From a phage: a stretch of 46,874 bases of DNA. Location: sequence record PZ445467.1. The stretch is one strand, 5' to 3'. This document shows positions 2,127-37,037 of the stretch, in pieces. The notes under the pieces were generated by a model. It was given only the letters and a program-made list of their open reading frames with translations. It was not told where the DNA came from and made no database searches. The stretch's first letter is position 1. Each line of letters opens with the position of its first letter. A program made the position numbers and the translations under genes.

Positions 2127-2300
2127 ATGAAAATCGAAGGTGATTACGGGCAGTATATTATGATTGATAAGGATTTTGAATACGGAAGCGATCTACTAGT
2201 TGTCAGGCAGACAGGTGATGTAATAGTTGTTGCAATTGAGCAAGCAGAGCAACTAATCGAAGTCCTGCAACGCTGGGTTAATGGTGAGGAGATTGAGTGA
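2127..2300 (+). CDS. hypothetical protein (57 aa)
   Basis: ATG after GAGGTGA; stop overlaps next start; below ORF-track size cutoff. Confidence 0.4.
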   Translation: MKIEGDYGQYIMIDKDFEYGSDLLVVRQTGDVIVVAIEQAEQLIEVLQRWVNGEEIE

Positions 2301-2485
2301 TGAGCGTTTATTTTATTCATGCTGAAGTGCTTGGTGGTGGCGATATTGTTACCAAGGTTTGCGCGATAGCTACGACATCAAACGCCAATGAAGCGTTTGA
2401 TTGGTTTTTAGGTCAGGAATTGGTTGCAAAATACGAAATAAAAGGCTACGACGTCATCATTGATAAACTTGAAAAGGTGGAGTGA
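2300..2485 (+). CDS. hypothetical protein (61 aa)
   Basis: ATG 8 nt after GAGGAG; coupled to neighbours. Confidence 0.45.
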   Translation: MSVYFIHAEVLGGGDIVTKVCAIATTSNANEAFDWFLGQELVAKYEIKGYDVIIDKLEKVE

Positions 2486-4148: not shown

Positions 4149-5082
4149 CGCAAGACTTCCGCAGCCGCGCATATCGCAGAGCCTGACCGACCCGTTAGGC
4201 GCTGCAACCCGCATGTCGAAGATGGACAAGGTGATAACGCGCAAATATAAGCAACTCAGGACTCGTGCGCTTGAGTTGTTTCGCACCATTCCGCATAGTC
4301 AGACTAACGCAGAATCAAGCGGTCTGTATTTCTATGATTTCAGTAGTGCGCGCGCCGCTACTTTCATGGATGAGTTGCAGGCGCTGATTGACGAGATTCT
4401 GCTGGAAGGTGACGACTTCAGTCACGGCAGGATGTGGGCCAATGTGTTCATCGGTGATGCGTATCAGGCAGGAACGCAGAAGGCCAACTCTGAACTATCA
4501 AGCCTGTCTCCGGTTTATGCCGAGCAAAGGCCTATTGCCGCGATACTCTACAGTGAGCCATATCTGAATCGGCTGCGGCTTGCGTATACAGCTGGTTACT
4601 CGGACTGGCGAGGATTGAGTGATTACTCACGCCAACAACTGGCATCCGTCATTATGGAAGGCATTGCCCGTGGTGCCAATCCTCGAGATGTTGAGGCTGA
4701 TATTGTTAAGCGTGTTGACGTGTCACATAGTTACGCGAAGCAGATAGCGCAGACTGAAATCACCGGAACGCTGCGGCAGGCTAACAGGAGAGAAGTCATT
4801 GAGGCTCGCGAGGAATTAGGTATTGAAACGGTGATGCTGTGGCAATCGGCATTATTGCCTGGTCGAACGAGATTTACTCACGCGGCACGGCACGGGCGGT
4901 TTTACGCGCCAGAGGAGATTGACACGTTCTATAGCGAGAATGGCAATAGATATAATTGCCACTGTGCACAAGTACCAACATTGATAATGGATGGCAAGCC
5001 AGTCATTCTTGAGTCGTCGCAGGAAAGGCTTGATAAGCAGCGTGAAGCGTGGCAATCAGCCAATAAAAAGCCCTCTAAGTGA
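4129..5082 (+). CDS. head morphogenesis protein (Mu F / SPP1 gp7-like)
   Basis: ORF overlapping portal 3' end; ATG 4129 has GGAAG 6 nt upstream (alternative ATG 4123 or 4213); position and size fit MuF-like minor head protein. Confidence 0.6.
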
Positions 5083-5098
5083 GGGCTTGGTTTTATCT
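5069..5098 (+). terminator. rho-independent terminator
   Basis: stem AGCCCTC/GAGGGCT overlapping the stop codon, followed by TGGTTTTAT. Confidence 0.55.
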
Positions 5099-5104
5099 TA
5101 TCAG

Positions 5105-5182
5105 CATACACAGAACGAATATTATTATCGCATACACAGAACGAATATTATTATCGCATACACAGAACGAATATTATTATCG
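5105..5182. repeat. three perfect tandem copies of a 26-bp unit CATACACAGAACGAATATTATTATCG
   Basis: read directly: units at 5105-5130, 5131-5156, 5157-5182; intergenic between convergent genes. Confidence 0.9.
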
Positions 5183-5217
5183 CATAGCACAATATCTCTA
5201 CGACGCTGAATATTGTT

Positions 5218-5826
5218 TTAATCATCAAGTTTCACGCCGGGAATTTTGCCTGCTGCGATGGCTTCATAAATTAGCTTAGCCTCATCCTCGCGCTTGTAAT
5301 CTTGCGCTACCATTTCTAATACCGCGCAGATAGATTCAAGTACAGCCTCATGCTTCCTTTCTGCTTCTGTGCGAAATGGGATGAAAACATCCTTATTGGA
5401 TGGGGTTATTGCGTAGTAAATCTCACCAGATGGTCTGATAACTATTTTTTCGCCATCAAGACCAATAACCTTGACTTTTCCCCATGACGTTCCGTTGCTG
5501 ATATACTCACATTCACACCCAACTGGCGGCAGTCCTTCTCCGTTCCATGCTGAATTTTTCGATGCTGCGAGTGCTGCTTTGTATTGCCAATAGGTTACTA
5601 TCGACTCCTTATGGTCGGAAGATAATTGCGTAGCCCATTCTTCTCCATACCAGAAATGCACAAGGCTATTTCCTGTGTGATGTTTCCATGAGAACCCATC
5701 ATAGTGTGGGTCATTTGTGTCCCATGCGCACAGCGAACCGTCATTATCTTGAGTAATTGACAGCGCGTTTTGAGGCCACCAACCACGCTTAGGCAATTCT
5801 TGAACTAACAGGTCGATAAGTTTCAT
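5218..5826 (-). CDS. hypothetical protein (202 aa)
   Basis: ATG preceded by GGAGAA; last gene of a four-gene leftward block. Confidence 0.55.
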   Translation of the reverse strand: MKLIDLLVQELPKRGWWPQNALSITQDNDGSLCAWDTNDPHYDGFSWKHHTGNSLVHFWYGEEWATQLSSDHKESIVTYWQYKAALAASKNSAWNGEGLPPVGCECEYISNGTSWGKVKVIGLDGEKIVIRPSGEIYYAITPSNKDVFIPFRTEAERKHEAVLESICAVLEMVAQDYKREDEAKLIYEAIAAGKIPGVKLDD

Positions 5827-5838
5827 TTTTGTTCTCCG

Positions 5839-6054
5839 TTAATAATTTGGCTTTACGTCTTTCATTGTTAGTGGCTTCCATCCACTTGCGATTGCAATAT
5901 CAATACAATCCTCAAGCGTTTCAGCTTTTATTGGCTCACCAACTTCACTATCATCAAATTTTCTCTGTATTTGATAGCCATCTACGACATAAAGAATCTC
6001 TACAGAACCATGTAGTGTGTGCATCGACTCAAGCCATTGCAGGTGGTAGCTCAT
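5839..6054 (-). CDS. hypothetical protein (71 aa)
   Basis: ATG start; ATGA overlap with upstream gene stop. Confidence 0.45.
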   Translation of the reverse strand: MSYHLQWLESMHTLHGSVEILYVVDGYQIQRKFDDSEVGEPIKAETLEDCIDIAIASGWKPLTMKDVKPNY

Positions 6055-6320
6055 TTTGTTCCCCCTAATGCCTTATTAACCGCAGCACGCGCATTATCTA
6101 GAGCGCGGCGCTTACTTGATGTTGTCCAGACTTTGCCGGAGTGGTCGTCGTAGATTTCCAGTAGTTGCTGGAGTGCTGATAGCATGGCCTTGTTATTATC
6201 GTGGCAATACCCAACAGAAAAGCCATGCCATAATTCATCCTTTTCTCTATCGGTCATGTCGCCAAACCCAACCGAATCAAACCATTCAATAAATAATTGG
6301 TACACTTCGCGTTGCGTCAT
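6051..6320 (-). CDS. hypothetical protein (89 aa)
   Basis: ATG at 6320 preceded by GAGG; track ORF extends to a GTG at 6332. Confidence 0.5.
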   Translation of the reverse strand: MTQREVYQLFIEWFDSVGFGDMTDREKDELWHGFSVGYCHDNNKAMLSALQQLLEIYDDHSGKVWTTSSKRRALDNARAAVNKALGGTK

Positions 6321-6328
6321 TATCAACC

Positions 6329-6490
6329 TCACTTAATATATTCAATAATCTCAACTTCACGCATCTGCACCAGACTAAATGGCGCAACCACTTTGCCGCA
6401 TGGGCGGATTTTGATTTGCTCAAGGCCGAACATTCCGCAGCGTCCGTTTTCTTTGAATTTGACCATTACCATAATTTCTTCCTCACTCAT
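6329..6490 (-). CDS. hypothetical small protein (53 aa)
   Basis: ORF MSEEEIMVMVKFKENGRCGMF...; no clear SD; below ORF-track cutoff. Confidence 0.3.
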   Translation of the reverse strand: MSEEEIMVMVKFKENGRCGMFGLEQIKIRPCGKVVAPFSLVQMREVEIIEYIK

Positions 6491-6577
6491 CGTTTGATGT
6501 AGATACTATGCACCACCACTCAATCTACGTCAATAGCCATTGTGATAGAATTAATCATTATTTGAACAGGAGGCAGA
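6491..6577. promoter_or_regulatory. divergent promoter region with two copies of the ATCTAC motif
   Basis: motif at 6521-6533 (+) and inverted copy at 6496-6506; TGTGATAGAAT -10-like at 6541-6551; AGGAGG SD before ATG 6578. Confidence 0.5.
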
Positions 6578-6856
6578 ATGAAACTATCGCAACGCGGCAT
6601 GGAGGTGTTTGGAATTACCGATGCCGTAGATATATCGCCTTACATCACCACTGAGACAACACAGAATCAGTTTGATGCGCTGACAAGCCTTGCCACCGAC
6701 ATCGGCATTGACTCGTTCCGCAAATCAACGCTTCTGAAGAAACACAATCTCCGCTGCTTCTCATGTGTCGTCGCGCATTTCATCGTGTGGGGTGAGAAGA
6801 CTGGCGACAAAGCAAAATGCAAGGCTGAAAAAGAGGTTTACTGGTATGGCTATTAG
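6578..6856 (+). pseudogene. 5'-truncated GH24 (T4/P22 gp19-type) lysozyme remnant, 92 aa
   Basis: QNQFDALTSL...IGIDSFRKSTLLKKHNL resembles the C-terminal half of P22-type lysozymes; N-terminal catalytic region absent; intact SD and ATG. Confidence 0.45.
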
Positions 6857-7310
6857 CAAAAACATGAAGGCGTTTCTGGATATGCTGGCGTACAGCGAGG
6901 GCACTGATAACGGGCGGCAGAAAACCAATAATCATGGTTATGATGTGATTGTTGGCGGCTCACTGTTTACCGACTATTCCGATCACCCGCGCAAGCTGAT
7001 TAGCCTGCCTAAGCTGGGCATCAAATCCACTGCCGCCGGGCGCTATCAGGTGCTGGCTAAATTTTATGATGCGTACAAAAAGCAACTGCGCCTGCCTGAC
7101 TTCTCCCCCGCGTCACAGGACGCTATCGCAATGCAACTAATCCGTGAATGCAAAGCCACCGCCGATATTGAGACTGGTCGCATTGCTGATGCTATCCATA
7201 AATGCCGCTCCCGCTGGGCTTCATTACCGGGCGCTGGCTATGGTCAGCATGAGCAGAAGCTGGATAAGTTGATTCAGGTATACAAAGAGGCTGGCGGAGC
7301 TGTGGCATGA
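6846..7310 (+). CDS. endolysin, lambda R-type lytic transglycosylase
   Basis: 154 aa; FLDMLAYSEGTDNGRQKT.NHGYDVIVGG.LFTDYSDHPR and WASLPGAGYGQ closely match lambda R; GAGG SD. Confidence 0.9.
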   Translation: MAISKNMKAFLDMLAYSEGTDNGRQKTNNHGYDVIVGGSLFTDYSDHPRKLISLPKLGIKSTAAGRYQVLAKFYDAYKKQLRLPDFSPASQDAIAMQLIRECKATADIETGRIADAIHKCRSRWASLPGAGYGQHEQKLDKLIQVYKEAGGAVA

Positions 7311-8464: not shown

Positions 8465-8686
8465 TTAGCCTCTTACGTTTAATTTGATTTTTCCATCCAC
8501 GTCGCGTGATGCACACTCAACAGTGATTGTTAACTTGGTGATCTCTTCGACGTCTGCATCAAGAATCAAGCGGACGCAACCACCAACTATTCTACCATCC
8601 TGATCAACAACGCGAATTTTATCATCGACTCTTTCAACGTGGAGCCAAACCTTTTCTTCATCACAGCCATTATTGAGAATTGACAT
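8465..8686 (-). CDS. hypothetical protein (73 aa)
   Basis: ATG with TAATG overlap to upstream stop. Confidence 0.45.
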   Translation of the reverse strand: MSILNNGCDEEKVWLHVERVDDKIRVVDQDGRIVGGCVRLILDADVEEITKLTITVECASRDVDGKIKLNVRG

Positions 8687-35263: not shown

Positions 35264-35452
35264 TCACTCAAATTCTACAAAATCACCACCAACCATTTCG
35301 ACGATAATGAATCCAGATTCATCATCATATGTTGCCTGCCATATAGCTCCAGTTTCGTCGCTTATTTTAAAGGTACCACCAAAAAAGTCAGCGCTATACC
35401 ACTCATCTTCTTTAAATCTTTTGCTTGTTGAGCTTGCACAAAATAATTTCAT
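35264..35452 (-). CDS. hypothetical protein (62 aa)
   Basis: ATG 35452 preceded by GTGAGGTG. Confidence 0.4.
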   Translation of the reverse strand: MKLFCASSTSKRFKEDEWYSADFFGGTFKISDETGAIWQATYDDESGFIIVEMVGGDFVEFE

Positions 35453-35469
35453 TTGCATCACCTCACTAA

Positions 35470-36410: not shown

Positions 36411-37037
36411 TCACTCTCCGTGGTTACAGAATTCTTTATGCATCTTTTCTCTAAACTTCATGACAGCAACTCTTGCTTTATCAATATCATGAAATAATCC
36501 AATGTGGTATTTAATACCATTAACCGTACATCTGGCATGCCATTTTTTGCATTGTTTGTTCCAGTAAACACCTTTCACTCCAGATGTATTATTTTTTTGC
36601 TTTTTACGATTAAACTGATTCTGTTCATTGCTTGCTATTCTTAAGTTATCAATCCTGTTGTCATCTCTAATGCCATTAATGTGATCAATATTATCTTCTT
36701 GCCAATAACCATAACAAATCAACCACGCGAGTATGTGAGCATAATACCTATTATTATTTATGCTTATTTCTATGTAACCGTTATCTTTTTTGCAGCCCGC
36801 CAAATCTCCATTGTTTACGCAACCAACAGTCTTGTTCCATGCAAACAAACCAGTTACCAGATTGTAAGTTAAGTTATCTAAAACAACATTACGAGGTATT
36901 CTTTTTCTTCCACCTATGGTGTTTGACCCTGCATTTCCCTGAGCAAAATCTTGCTTTTGCAGTTCCGATAAACTCATTTCCGCAAACCTCGCACTTCTTA
37001 ACGGTGATAGCCATTTCTTAACCTCTATTGTAATCAT
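36411..37037 (-). CDS. HNH homing endonuclease with C-terminal AP2 DNA-binding domain
   Basis: HNH_3 pattern YYAHILAWL...DHINGIRDDNRIDNLR; AP2-like GVKGVYWNKQCKKWHARCTVNGIKYHIGLF. Confidence 0.8.
   Translation of the reverse strand: MITIEVKKWLSPLRSARFAEMSLSELQKQDFAQGNAGSNTIGGRKRIPRNVVLDNLTYNLVTGLFAWNKTVGCVNNGDLAGCKKDNGYIEISINNNRYYAHILAWLICYGYWQEDNIDHINGIRDDNRIDNLRIASNEQNQFNRKKQKNNTSGVKGVYWNKQCKKWHARCTVNGIKYHIGLFHDIDKARVAVMKFREKMHKEFCNHGE

What the first reader, a model, noticed from the sequence alone, without database searches (positions are those of the whole stretch)
5218..6490. Four-gene leftward accessory block of unknown function between head morphogenesis and lysis genes
Genes of 53, 89, 71 and 202 aa are transcribed against the flanking structural/lysis operons, driven from the motif-bearing divergent promoter at 6491-6577, and end near the tandem repeats. 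None resembled a family I could name. Moron-like position and opposite orientation are typical of anti-defense, exclusion or host-modulation cargo.
Basis: inference. Interest (0 to 1): 0.5.

Follow-up and report, generated by a model that had tools for sequence, protein, structure and literature searches.

The report
Conserved early accessory operon, function unknown
Four small genes sit backwards between the head and lysis genes of an E. coli Skatevirus phage; they are real and probably expressed early, but they are a largely conserved feature of this phage group rather than foreign cargo, and nothing found here reveals their function.

Summary
Four tightly packed leftward genes at 5218-6490 form one unit, with a sigma-70-like promoter upstream and a bidirectional terminator downstream. 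All four are under purifying selection.

Two details need correcting. The first gene is most likely 47 aa, not 53. The 89-aa call is right, whereas the GenBank annotation of the closest relative uses 93 aa.

The window is a BASEL Skatevirus, and its length and GC content match Bas79. The "moron-like cargo" reading is only partly right. All 22 relatives examined carry a leftward block in this slot. The 47-aa gene, the 89-aa gene's C-terminal module (Pfam PF27050) and, in 21 of the 22, a ~200-aa modular protein recur; only the 71-aa gene is sporadic.

Three things point to early, lambdoid "Ea-type" accessory proteins:
- All four proteins are soluble.
- The block shares a promoter motif with the DNA-metabolism blocks.
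- Two genes have homologs in the early-left operons of phages P22 and phiEt88.

No link to structural, lysis or defence families was found; anti-defence families could not be screened directly. Function stays unknown. This is an ordinary piece of phage dark matter with one weak lead (sensitivity to P2 Old).

The parts
6505..6533 (-). Sigma-70-like leftward promoter: -35 TTGACG (6533-6528), 17-nt spacer, -10 CATAGT (6510-6505). The predicted transcription start is near 6498.
   Evidence: Consensus scan, 9 of 12 matches. The sequence is nearly invariant in 10 relatives. No transcript data exist.
6494..6533 (.). Inverted pair of the genome-wide motif TTGAYGTAGAT (6494-6504 on the + strand, 6523-6533 on the - strand), bracketing the region from the -35 element to the transcription start. 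A candidate operator.
   Evidence: Inverted repeat with 11-nt arms, 91% complementary, 18 nt apart. The motif occurs 13 times in the window against 1.76 expected; 0 of 100 shuffles reached 13. About ten of the sites lie in intergenic regions, including those heading every leftward block.
6329..6472 (-). Gene 1: a 47-aa basic protein (pI 9.2), PHROG 21280. It has been annotated as 53 aa from the ATG at 6490. It is the most conserved member of the block.
   Evidence: PHROG E-value 6.4e-33 over residues 7-53. 145 phage records. 68-100% identical in the 21 relatives screened (83-100% in all but one), dN/dS 0.12-0.52.
6051..6320 (-). Gene 2: an 89-aa protein in Pfam PF27050 (Phage_P22_Y8K6). The N-terminal half is swappable; the C-terminal 45 residues are nearly invariant. 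It resembles P22 Orf78.
   Evidence: A gene whose product is 100% identical, on contig L015, carries an unmarked PF27050 hit. Alignment A3 shows at least 3 N-terminal versions. hhalign against P22 orf78 gives E 5.4e-4. Weak match to PHROG 1273.
5839..6054 (-). Gene 3: a 71-aa acidic protein (pI 4.7, GC 0.39). This is the only truly sporadic gene of the block.
   Evidence: Present in 3 of the 12 GenBank relatives screened. 39 phage records, including 9NA gene 19 and Klebsiella phages. Only 26 protein clusters. Contigs encoding the identical protein differ by dS up to 0.32. The AF2 model is poor, pLDDT 53.8.
5218..5826 (-). Gene 4: a 202-aa acidic modular protein, PHROG 7798. It has an N-terminal domain, a Tudor/SH3-like beta-barrel (about residues 105-150) and a C-terminal helical hairpin. 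Conserved islands bracket variable cassettes.
5098..5191 (.). A 26-bp tandem repeat, 3.5 copies, in the 3' untranslated region of the operon. Where relatives keep this spacer the unit is single-copy, so this is a window-specific expansion.
   Evidence: TRF score 170. The 15 of the 21 relatives examined that keep this spacer all have a single unit there; the other six carry a different sequence.
5068..5088 (.). Bidirectional intrinsic terminator shared by the head-morphogenesis gene (+) and the leftward operon (-).
   Evidence: 8-bp stem with 5 GC pairs and a T-run on both strands. It is annotated as a terminator in phages Skate and ASO78B.

Best explanation
The block is a host-RNA-polymerase-transcribed early operon of about 1.4 kb. 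It encodes four small soluble cytoplasmic proteins of the kind that lambdoid phages carry in their early-left "Ea" accessory region. It is not part of head assembly or lysis.

Three members are a standing feature of Skatevirus-type phages: the 47-aa protein, the PF27050 protein and a ~200-aa modular protein. The 71-aa gene is an optional insertion.

The most likely mode of action is inferred, not shown: stoichiometric binding of host, or competing-element, proteins or nucleic acids early in infection. In this reading the 202-aa protein acts as an adaptor. Its conserved N-terminal helix, linker and C-terminal hairpin would do a constant job, while two hypervariable cassettes (residues ~21-75 and the body of the Tudor/SH3-like barrel, ~111-147) would set target specificity. 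These cassettes appear to be exchanged among phages by recombination.

Shown: gene structure, conservation pattern, selection, solubility, promoter and motif sequence, and the genomic context of homologs.
Inferred: early timing, protein-binding mechanism, host-directed role.
For: - Operon anatomy with promoter and terminator.
- The promoter region is conserved in 10 relatives.
- The motif TTGAYGTAGAT is enriched, 13 sites against 1.76 expected. It heads the leftward blocks that encode SSB, exonuclease, helicase, primase, ParB-like, Dam and RusA proteins. This places the block in the non-late regulon.
- The 89-aa protein belongs to PF27050 and resembles P22 Orf78, which lies between ral and gene 17 in the P22 PL operon.
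- The 202-aa protein is 35% identical over its full length (E 2e-25) to phiEt88 gp34, which lies between exo/recT and xis/int. A homolog sits upstream of erf/exo/ssb in Pseudomonas phage Aurca01.
- No protein has a transmembrane segment; three are acidic and one is basic.
- There are no structural, lysis or enzyme family hits.
- The 202-aa family shows conserved islands at residues 1-20, 76-107, 148-158 and 186-200, with variable stretches between them, and natural domain swaps.
- Its alleles are 36-99% identical among phages whose 47-aa gene is 68-100% identical (83-100% in all but one). In most of the more diverged relatives its dS is about twice that of the 47-aa gene (e.g. 0.95 v 0.41 for L007), which indicates allele replacement.
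Against: - There is no expression, interaction or phenotype data for any of the four genes.
- The promoter is a consensus match only (9 of 12).
- The P22 Orf78 link rests on a short alignment (37 columns, hhalign probability 30%) plus precomputed Pfam labels. The local Pfam copy lacks that model.
- Conservation of three genes across the genus fits a phage-internal housekeeping role equally well.
- The phages stay highly sensitive to restriction-modification systems, so at least broad anti-restriction activity is unlikely.
Confidence: 0.5

Rival explanations
1. Phage-internal regulation or DNA-metabolism helpers. The promoter-proximal basic 47-aa protein would be a small Sso7d-like DNA binder. 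It would recognise the TTGAYGTAGAT motif and tune the divergent early-left and lysis-right promoters, along with the other motif-bearing promoters. The PF27050 and 202-aa proteins would assist replication or recombination.
For: - The 47-aa protein is basic (pI 9.2), is the best-conserved member, and sits first after a promoter flanked by an inverted motif pair.
- It shows weak sequence resemblance to Sac7d/Sso7d residues 1-30 (E 0.4) and to ribosomal protein uS8 (E 0.018-0.044).
- Homologs of the 202-aa gene sit next to recombination genes in phiEt88 and Aurca01.
- Three of the four genes are conserved across the genus.
Against: - The PDB similarities are not significant, and a family profile did not improve them.
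- No helix-turn-helix or other DNA-binding family was hit.
- The 202-aa alleles turn over far faster than the replication genes would be expected to.
- In phage STGO-35-1 the ~200-aa gene is replaced by an unrelated 99-aa gene.
Confidence: 0.2
2. Dedicated counter-defence cargo. One or more of the proteins would inhibit, or be sensed by, a specific bacterial defence. For example, the 71-aa protein could act on RecBCD or DNA ends and thereby sensitise the phage to P2 Old.
For: - The five BASEL Skatevirus phages split cleanly. Bas77, Bas78 and Bas79 carry the 71-aa gene and plate on Old at 0.001-0.5. Bas80 and Bas81 lack it and plate at 0.3-2.1.
- Only six window segments (1,382 bp) are shared by the first three phages and absent from the other two. 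The 71-aa gene is one of them.
- Small acidic early proteins are typical inhibitors.
- The 71-aa gene has low GC and a patchy distribution across phage groups.
Against: - The sample is five phages and is confounded by phylogeny.
- Bas80 and Bas81 carry tRNA genes that the window lacks. Phage tRNAs, homing nucleases and recombination-locus genes are documented modifiers of Old sensitivity.
- Better a priori candidates are among the six segments: a 65-aa ORF in the recombination module and an HNH endonuclease.
- There were no hits in PADLOC.
- All five phages are strongly restricted by restriction-modification systems.
Confidence: 0.15
3. Accessory factors of head morphogenesis or of lysis timing, encoded where they act, between the Mu-F-like head gene and the endolysin.
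For: - The position, which is strictly conserved in the genus.
- A homolog of the 202-aa gene in Klebsiella Jedunavirus 1611E-K2-1 also lies inside the head-gene cluster, between the portal and a head protein.
Against: - The orientation is opposite to both neighbouring operons, with its own promoter and terminator.
- The promoter motif is shared with the DNA-metabolism blocks.
- None of the proteins has a membrane segment, in contrast to the holin control.
- Homologs in temperate phages lie in early-left operons, not in late operons.
- There are no hits to structural or lysis PHROGs.
Confidence: 0.05

Closest known systems
Lambdoid early-left (PL operon) accessory genes, i.e. the P22 ea/orf region, specifically P22 Orf78 between ral and gene 17
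   Same: The 89-aa protein carries the same Pfam family label (PF27050, Phage_P22_Y8K6). It shares the C-terminal motif (..LL.AL...I.D......W.....A.ARAA..KALG..). Both are small, soluble and of unknown function, and both are encoded among early non-structural genes.
   Different: The host phage here is virulent, and the gene sits between late operons rather than in a long PL operon. The N-terminal half is unrelated to Orf78 in the window's version. The similarity is short and statistically modest.
Erwinia phage phiEt88 gp34 (P88_00340) and the wider PHROG 7798 family
   Same: Full-length homology to the 202-aa protein (35% identity, E 2e-25), similar size, and the same conserved N- and C-terminal islands. 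Function is unknown.
   Different: In phiEt88 the gene lies in the exo/recT to xis/int interval of a temperate phage. In the window it is the last gene of a short operon abutting the head genes. The central cassettes differ.
Tudor/SH3-like small beta-barrel domains (e.g. the RDM15 Tudor domain 7de9, the UvrD C-terminal domain 7egt)
   Different: Sequence identity is 13-16%. An aromatic cage or RNA-polymerase-binding surface was not tested. The rest of the protein has no structural match. This is fold resemblance only, not family membership.
Phage morons (lambda/HK97 sense)
   Same: Own promoter and terminator, opposite orientation, and location between conserved late genes.
   Different: The block as a whole is present in every relative examined. 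Only its 71-aa gene is gained and lost, and that gene has no promoter or terminator of its own.

Membership tests
Pfam PF27050 (Phage_P22_Y8K6), 89-aa protein | A significant match to the family's profile HMM | tested here: met
   The gene on contig L015, whose product is 100% identical to the window's 89-aa protein, carries an unmarked (E<=1e-5) precomputed PF27050 hit. Nearly all close homologs carry it too. The local Pfam copy does not hold this model, so the direct scan was empty.
Pfam PF27050 (Phage_P22_Y8K6), 89-aa protein | Homology to the name-giving P22 protein (taken here to be Orf78, 78 aa) | tested here: inconclusive
   hhalign of alignment A3 against P22 orf78: E 5.4e-4, probability 30%, 37 columns, 43% identity. 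Orf78 was the top hit of a narrow HMM against all P22 ORFs, but only at E 0.53. That Orf78 is the Pfam seed is my inference from the family name.
PHROG 7798, 202-aa protein | A full-length profile match | tested here: met
   E 1.9e-49, residues 1-202 against profile positions 1-221 of 221; category "unknown function".
PHROG 21280, 47-aa protein | A full-length profile match | tested here: met
   E 6.4e-33, residues 7-53 against profile positions 1-47 of 47; category "unknown function".
Moron | An autonomous transcription unit (own promoter and terminator) inserted between genes of a conserved late cluster | tested here: met
   Promoter-like site at 6533-6505 and terminator at 5068-5088, between the Mu-F-like head gene and the endolysin. 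Sequence evidence only.
Moron | Present in some genomes and absent from otherwise closely related ones | tested here: not met
   A leftward block fills the slot in all 22 relatives examined. The 47-aa gene is present in every one. Only the 71-aa gene is patchy, in 3 of 12 GenBank relatives.
Moron | Base composition that departs from the rest of the genome | tested here: inconclusive
   The block's GC is 0.438 against 0.467 for the genome. The 71-aa gene is 0.389 and the other three are 0.438-0.459.
Known anti-phage defence families (PADLOC) | A profile match | tested here: not met
   No hit at E<=1 for three of the proteins. The 71-aa protein gave one weak hit, PDC-M05B at E 0.038.
Known anti-defence protein families (Ocr, ArdA, Ral/Lar, Gam, Abc2, Acr, Tad, Gad and others) | Sequence or structural match to a characterised inhibitor | not testable with these tools
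Tudor/SH3-like fold, barrel of the 202-aa protein | A five-stranded small beta-barrel superimposable on solved Tudor domains | tested here: met
Tudor/SH3-like fold, barrel of the 202-aa protein | Functional ligand site (an aromatic cage or a defined partner surface) | not tested
   Not examined. Sequence identity to the hits is 4-19%.
Sso7d/Sac7d 7-kDa DNA-binding proteins, 47-aa protein | Significant sequence or fold similarity | tested here: inconclusive
   A profile of 19 orthologs against PDB sequences gave E 0.4-0.63 over residues 1-29.

The most novel reading that the evidence does not exclude
The 202-aa protein represents a very large phage protein family with no Pfam model or assigned function: 2646 clusters at 50% identity (PHROG 7798 and relatives). 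The novel reading is that this family is a cassette-type adaptor. An invariant scaffold would present two recombination-shuffled hypervariable modules, including a Tudor/SH3-like barrel, that bind variable host immunity or takeover targets. That would make it a new widespread class of early counter-defence or host-takeover specificity protein.
Probability: 0.12. Interest if true: 0.6.

Novelty: new member of a known kind. Interest (0 to 1): 0.27.

Why it matters
As it stands, this is a well-delimited example of the small early-gene blocks that make up much of phage "dark matter". It changes no current picture.

Its practical value is that it sits in a BASEL collection phage with published defence phenotypes and natural variants: Bas77 to Bas81 differ in exactly these genes. 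That makes the genes easy to test by deletion and swapping.

If the very large 202-aa family proved to be a modular host-target binder, it would annotate thousands of orphan phage genes. If the 47-aa protein binds the promoter motif, it would explain how early and lysis promoters are coordinated in a phage group with no known regulator.

Tried and rejected
- **Family scans.** Pfam, NCBIfam, PADLOC and PHROG scans of all four proteins returned only \"unknown function\" PHROGs.
- **PDB sequence searches.** Single-sequence and profile searches gave nothing significant. The 47-aa protein hit uS8 at E 0.018 and Sac7d at E 0.4, and a family profile did not strengthen either. I treat these as probable chance.
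- **Fusion partners.** A Pfam scan of 32 longer members of the 202-aa family found no informative fused domain.
- **P22 Ea proteins.** An HMM of the 202-aa family against all P22 ORFs gave no hit, so it is not a P22 Ea protein.
- **Non-coding RNA.** An Rfam scan of 4800-6800 gave nothing above threshold.
- **Literature.** Searches for PF27050, orf78 and Skatevirus biology found no functional data.
- **Readings rejected.** The tandem repeat as a functional array: it is a window-specific expansion of a unit that is single-copy wherever relatives keep that spacer. An anti-restriction role: the phages remain strongly restricted. A membrane, exclusion or lysis role: there are no hydrophobic segments.
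Full report
**Identity of the window**

The 2.6 kb around the finding is 99.7% identical to Escherichia phage SandraMuster (Bas78, PQ850625). It is 90-97% identical to other Skatevirus-type siphophages of Salmonella and E. coli. Genome-wide, the window is a mosaic relative of Bas78 rather than a copy.

Its length (46,874 bp) and GC content (0.467) equal those listed for SusanneMuster (Bas79, PQ850629) in the BASEL paper's supplementary table. I therefore take the window to be Bas79. This is an inference, because that record is not in the searchable collection. In Bas78 the four genes are Bas78_0014 to 0017, all annotated "hypothetical protein".

**Checking the observation**

The sequence itself shows an operon layout:
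- The stop codon of gene 1 overlaps a GTG (GTGA at 6329-6332). The ATG at 6320 has a GAGG Shine-Dalgarno sequence 6 nt upstream.
- Genes 2 and 3 overlap by ATGA (6051-6054).
- Genes 3 and 4 are 12 nt apart, with a GGAGAA Shine-Dalgarno sequence between them.

Upstream lies a sigma-70-like promoter on the minus strand: TTGACG, 17 nt, CATAGT, at 6533-6505. Downstream lies an 8-bp-stem terminator at 5068-5088 with T-runs on both strands.

All four ORFs are under purifying selection against relatives, with dN/dS from 0 to 0.58. Contigs that encode the identical 71-aa protein still differ by dS up to 0.32.

Two refinements:
- Gene 1 is most likely 47 aa, starting at M7 (6472). GAGGA lies 7 nt before that ATG. 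The upstream ATG is mutated in two relatives while the rest of the leader is conserved. PHROG 21280 is 47 positions long and matches residues 7-53. Independent gene calls on relatives give 47 aa.
Most homologs are 89 aa (87-91 among the close ones).

**Is it sporadic cargo?**

I examined 13 GenBank relatives and 9 metagenomic contigs. Every one has a leftward block of 3 to 6 genes in the slot between the head-morphogenesis gene and the endolysin.

| Gene | Presence in the relatives examined | Identity to window | Phage records |
|---|---|---|---|
| 47 aa | all 21 screened by tblastn; annotated in the 22nd | 68-100% (83-100% in all but one) | 145 (158 records match the region) |
| ~200 aa (homolog of the 202-aa gene) | 21 of 22; STGO-35-1 has an unrelated 99-aa gene instead | 36-99% | 215 |
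| 89 aa | homolog detected in 18 of 21 screened, full length in only a few | about 70-100% over the aligned part | 79 |
| 71 aa | 3 of the 12 GenBank relatives screened | 99-100% | 39, including 9NA and Klebsiella phages |

(. The metagenomic contigs L015-L022 were retrieved through the 71-aa gene, so they say nothing about how often it occurs.)

For the 89-aa gene, the N-terminal half comes in at least three unrelated versions. The C-terminal 45 residues are nearly invariant.

The slot also collects selfish elements and extras: HNH and T5orf172 homing endonucleases, an IS605-type TnpB, a DUF7448 gene and several tiny ORFs.

So the block is a conserved scaffold in a recombination-prone slot, not a moron. 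Its ~200-aa member is the fast-moving part. In most of the more diverged relatives its dS is about twice that of the neighbouring 47-aa gene (e.g. 0.95 v 0.41 for L007), which points to allele replacement rather than local acceleration.

**What the proteins are**

No Pfam-A (local copy), NCBIfam or PADLOC family matches any of them. None has a transmembrane segment. Three are acidic; the 47-aa protein is basic, pI 9.2.

*The 202-aa protein.*
- It belongs to PHROG 7798 (E 1.9e-49, unknown function). The family is very large: 2985 near homologs and 2646 clusters at 50% identity.
- An AF2 model (pLDDT 70.6, pTM 0.45) shows three parts. The N-terminal domain is poorly defined between residues 40 and 74. 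A five-stranded barrel spans ~105-150. A C-terminal helical hairpin follows.
- Across 114 divergent family members, conservation is island-like. It is high at residues 1-20, 76-107, 148-158 and 186-200, and very low at 21-75, 111-147 and 161-185.
- Natural variants replace the barrel or insert another domain while keeping the ends. Longer relatives carry no recognisable Pfam domain.

*The 89-aa protein.* It carries Pfam PF27050, "Phage_P22_Y8K6", shown by precomputed hits on an identical gene product. Its conserved half aligns with P22 Orf78 (hhalign E 5.4e-4).

*The 71-aa protein.* It belongs to a small family of 26 clusters. Its AF2 model was too poor to use.

*The 47-aa protein.* It has only non-significant resemblances, to uS8 and to Sac7d.

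**Context that bears on function**

The motif TTGAYGTAGAT occurs 13 times in the window against 1.76 expected. About ten of the sites lie in intergenic regions. These include the regions heading every leftward block, among them the blocks that encode SSB, exonuclease VIII, helicase, primase, ParB-like, Dam and RusA proteins. At several sites the motif supplies the -35 (TTGAC) or the -10 (TAGATT) element.

At the finding's promoter, two copies form an inverted repeat that brackets the region from the -35 element to the transcription start. The rightward lysis genes appear to use an extended -10 element (TGATAGAAT, 6543-6551) whose -35 position falls in the same repeat. The block therefore shares promoter architecture with the DNA-metabolism genes, not with the structural operons. 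Early or middle timing is inferred from this, not measured.

Homologs in temperate phages sit in early-left accessory regions:
- P22 orf78 lies between ral and gene 17.
- phiEt88 gp34 lies between exo/recT and xis/int, next to an Eae-like gene.
- A Pseudomonas phage homolog lies upstream of erf/exo/ssb.

In a Klebsiella Jedunavirus, a homolog is a lone opposite-strand gene within the head cluster.

**Best explanation**

I read the block as an early, host-polymerase-driven operon of soluble "Ea-type" accessory proteins that act by binding partners rather than by catalysis. The 202-aa protein would be a scaffold carrying exchangeable specificity cassettes. This class-level reading is moderately supported; the binding mechanism is inference.

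The main rival is a phage-internal regulatory or replication-helper role, with the 47-aa protein as a motif-binding regulator. A morphogenesis or lysis role is unlikely.

**A weak experimental lead**

The BASEL source data give plating efficiency on P2 Old:

| Phage | 71-aa gene | Plating efficiency on Old |
|---|---|---|
| Bas77 | present | 0.12-0.52 |
| Bas78 | present | 0.02-0.37 |
| Bas79 | present | 0.001-0.07 |
| Bas80 | absent | 0.96-2.1 |
| Bas81 | absent | 0.29-1.36 |

Only six window segments (1,382 bp) are shared by the first three phages and missing from the other two. The 71-aa gene is one of them.

The sample is five phylogenetically structured phages, and other explanations are at least as good:
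- Bas80 and Bas81 carry tRNA genes that the window lacks.
- A recent preprint shows that phage tRNAs, homing nucleases, recombination-locus proteins and replication origins all modulate Old.
- The other candidate segments include an HNH endonuclease and a 65-aa ORF inside the recombination module.

The same data show all five phages restricted 10^-3 to 10^-7 by type I-III restriction-modification systems other than EcoKI, which restricts them only 10^-1 to 10^-3.2. This argues against broad anti-restriction activity for the block.

**Verdict**

The genes belong to catalogued but uncharacterised families. This is ordinary phage dark matter in a tractable model phage, so interest is low to moderate.

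Noticed in passing
window 5098-5191: The 26-bp tandem repeat (3.5 copies) is specific to this window. The 15 of 21 relatives that keep this 3' spacer, including Bas78 at 99.7% identity, have a single copy of the unit. The spacer is well conserved even where the adjacent ~200-aa gene is only 36-60% identical.
   Followed up: partly
window 1472, 6494, 6523, 9345, 18352, 23290, 27708, 31743, 37086, 39480, 43428, 43445, 46233: The motif TTGAYGTAGAT is enriched (13 sites against 1.76 expected). About ten sites lie in intergenic regions, often as pairs, and at several the motif supplies a -35 or -10 element. It may be an operator for an unidentified regulator, or a duplicated promoter module.
   Followed up: partly
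window 6578-7310: The lysis cassette begins with a 92-aa mini "endolysin" that matches only positions 55-114 of the 125-position Phage_lysozyme profile. A separate 154-181-aa lambda-type transglycosylase follows it. Bas81 and contig L021 instead have one 146-aa endolysin in place of the pair; the L021 gene carries a Phage_lysozyme hit.
   Followed up: no
L017:618-1709 (metagenomic relative): An IS605-family OrfB/TnpB (Cas12f-like) gene is inserted in the divergent promoter region between the endolysin and the leftward block.
   Followed up: no
window 6329-6472: The 47-aa protein shows weak, non-significant similarity to eukaryotic and archaeal ribosomal protein uS8 (IRPC.KV..F motif, E 0.018) and to the N-terminus of Sac7d/Sso7d (MV.VKFK..G, E 0.4).
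   Followed up: partly
whole window; window 2297-2485, 8465-8686, 35264-35461, 36411-37037: The window matches Bas79 in length and GC content. Besides the 71-aa gene, four other genes are shared only by the Old-sensitive phages Bas77, Bas78 and Bas79: ORFs of 62, 73 and 65 aa, and an HNH endonuclease. The Old-insensitive phages Bas80 and Bas81 carry tRNA genes that the window lacks.
   Followed up: partly
L011:~1290-1370, L013, L021 (alternative 3' spacer): In KFS-SE2, ST1UNAM and one contig, the conserved 3' spacer is replaced by a different sequence. By eye, this sequence could encode a ~25-aa Cys-rich peptide. I did not verify this with the translation tool.
   Followed up: no
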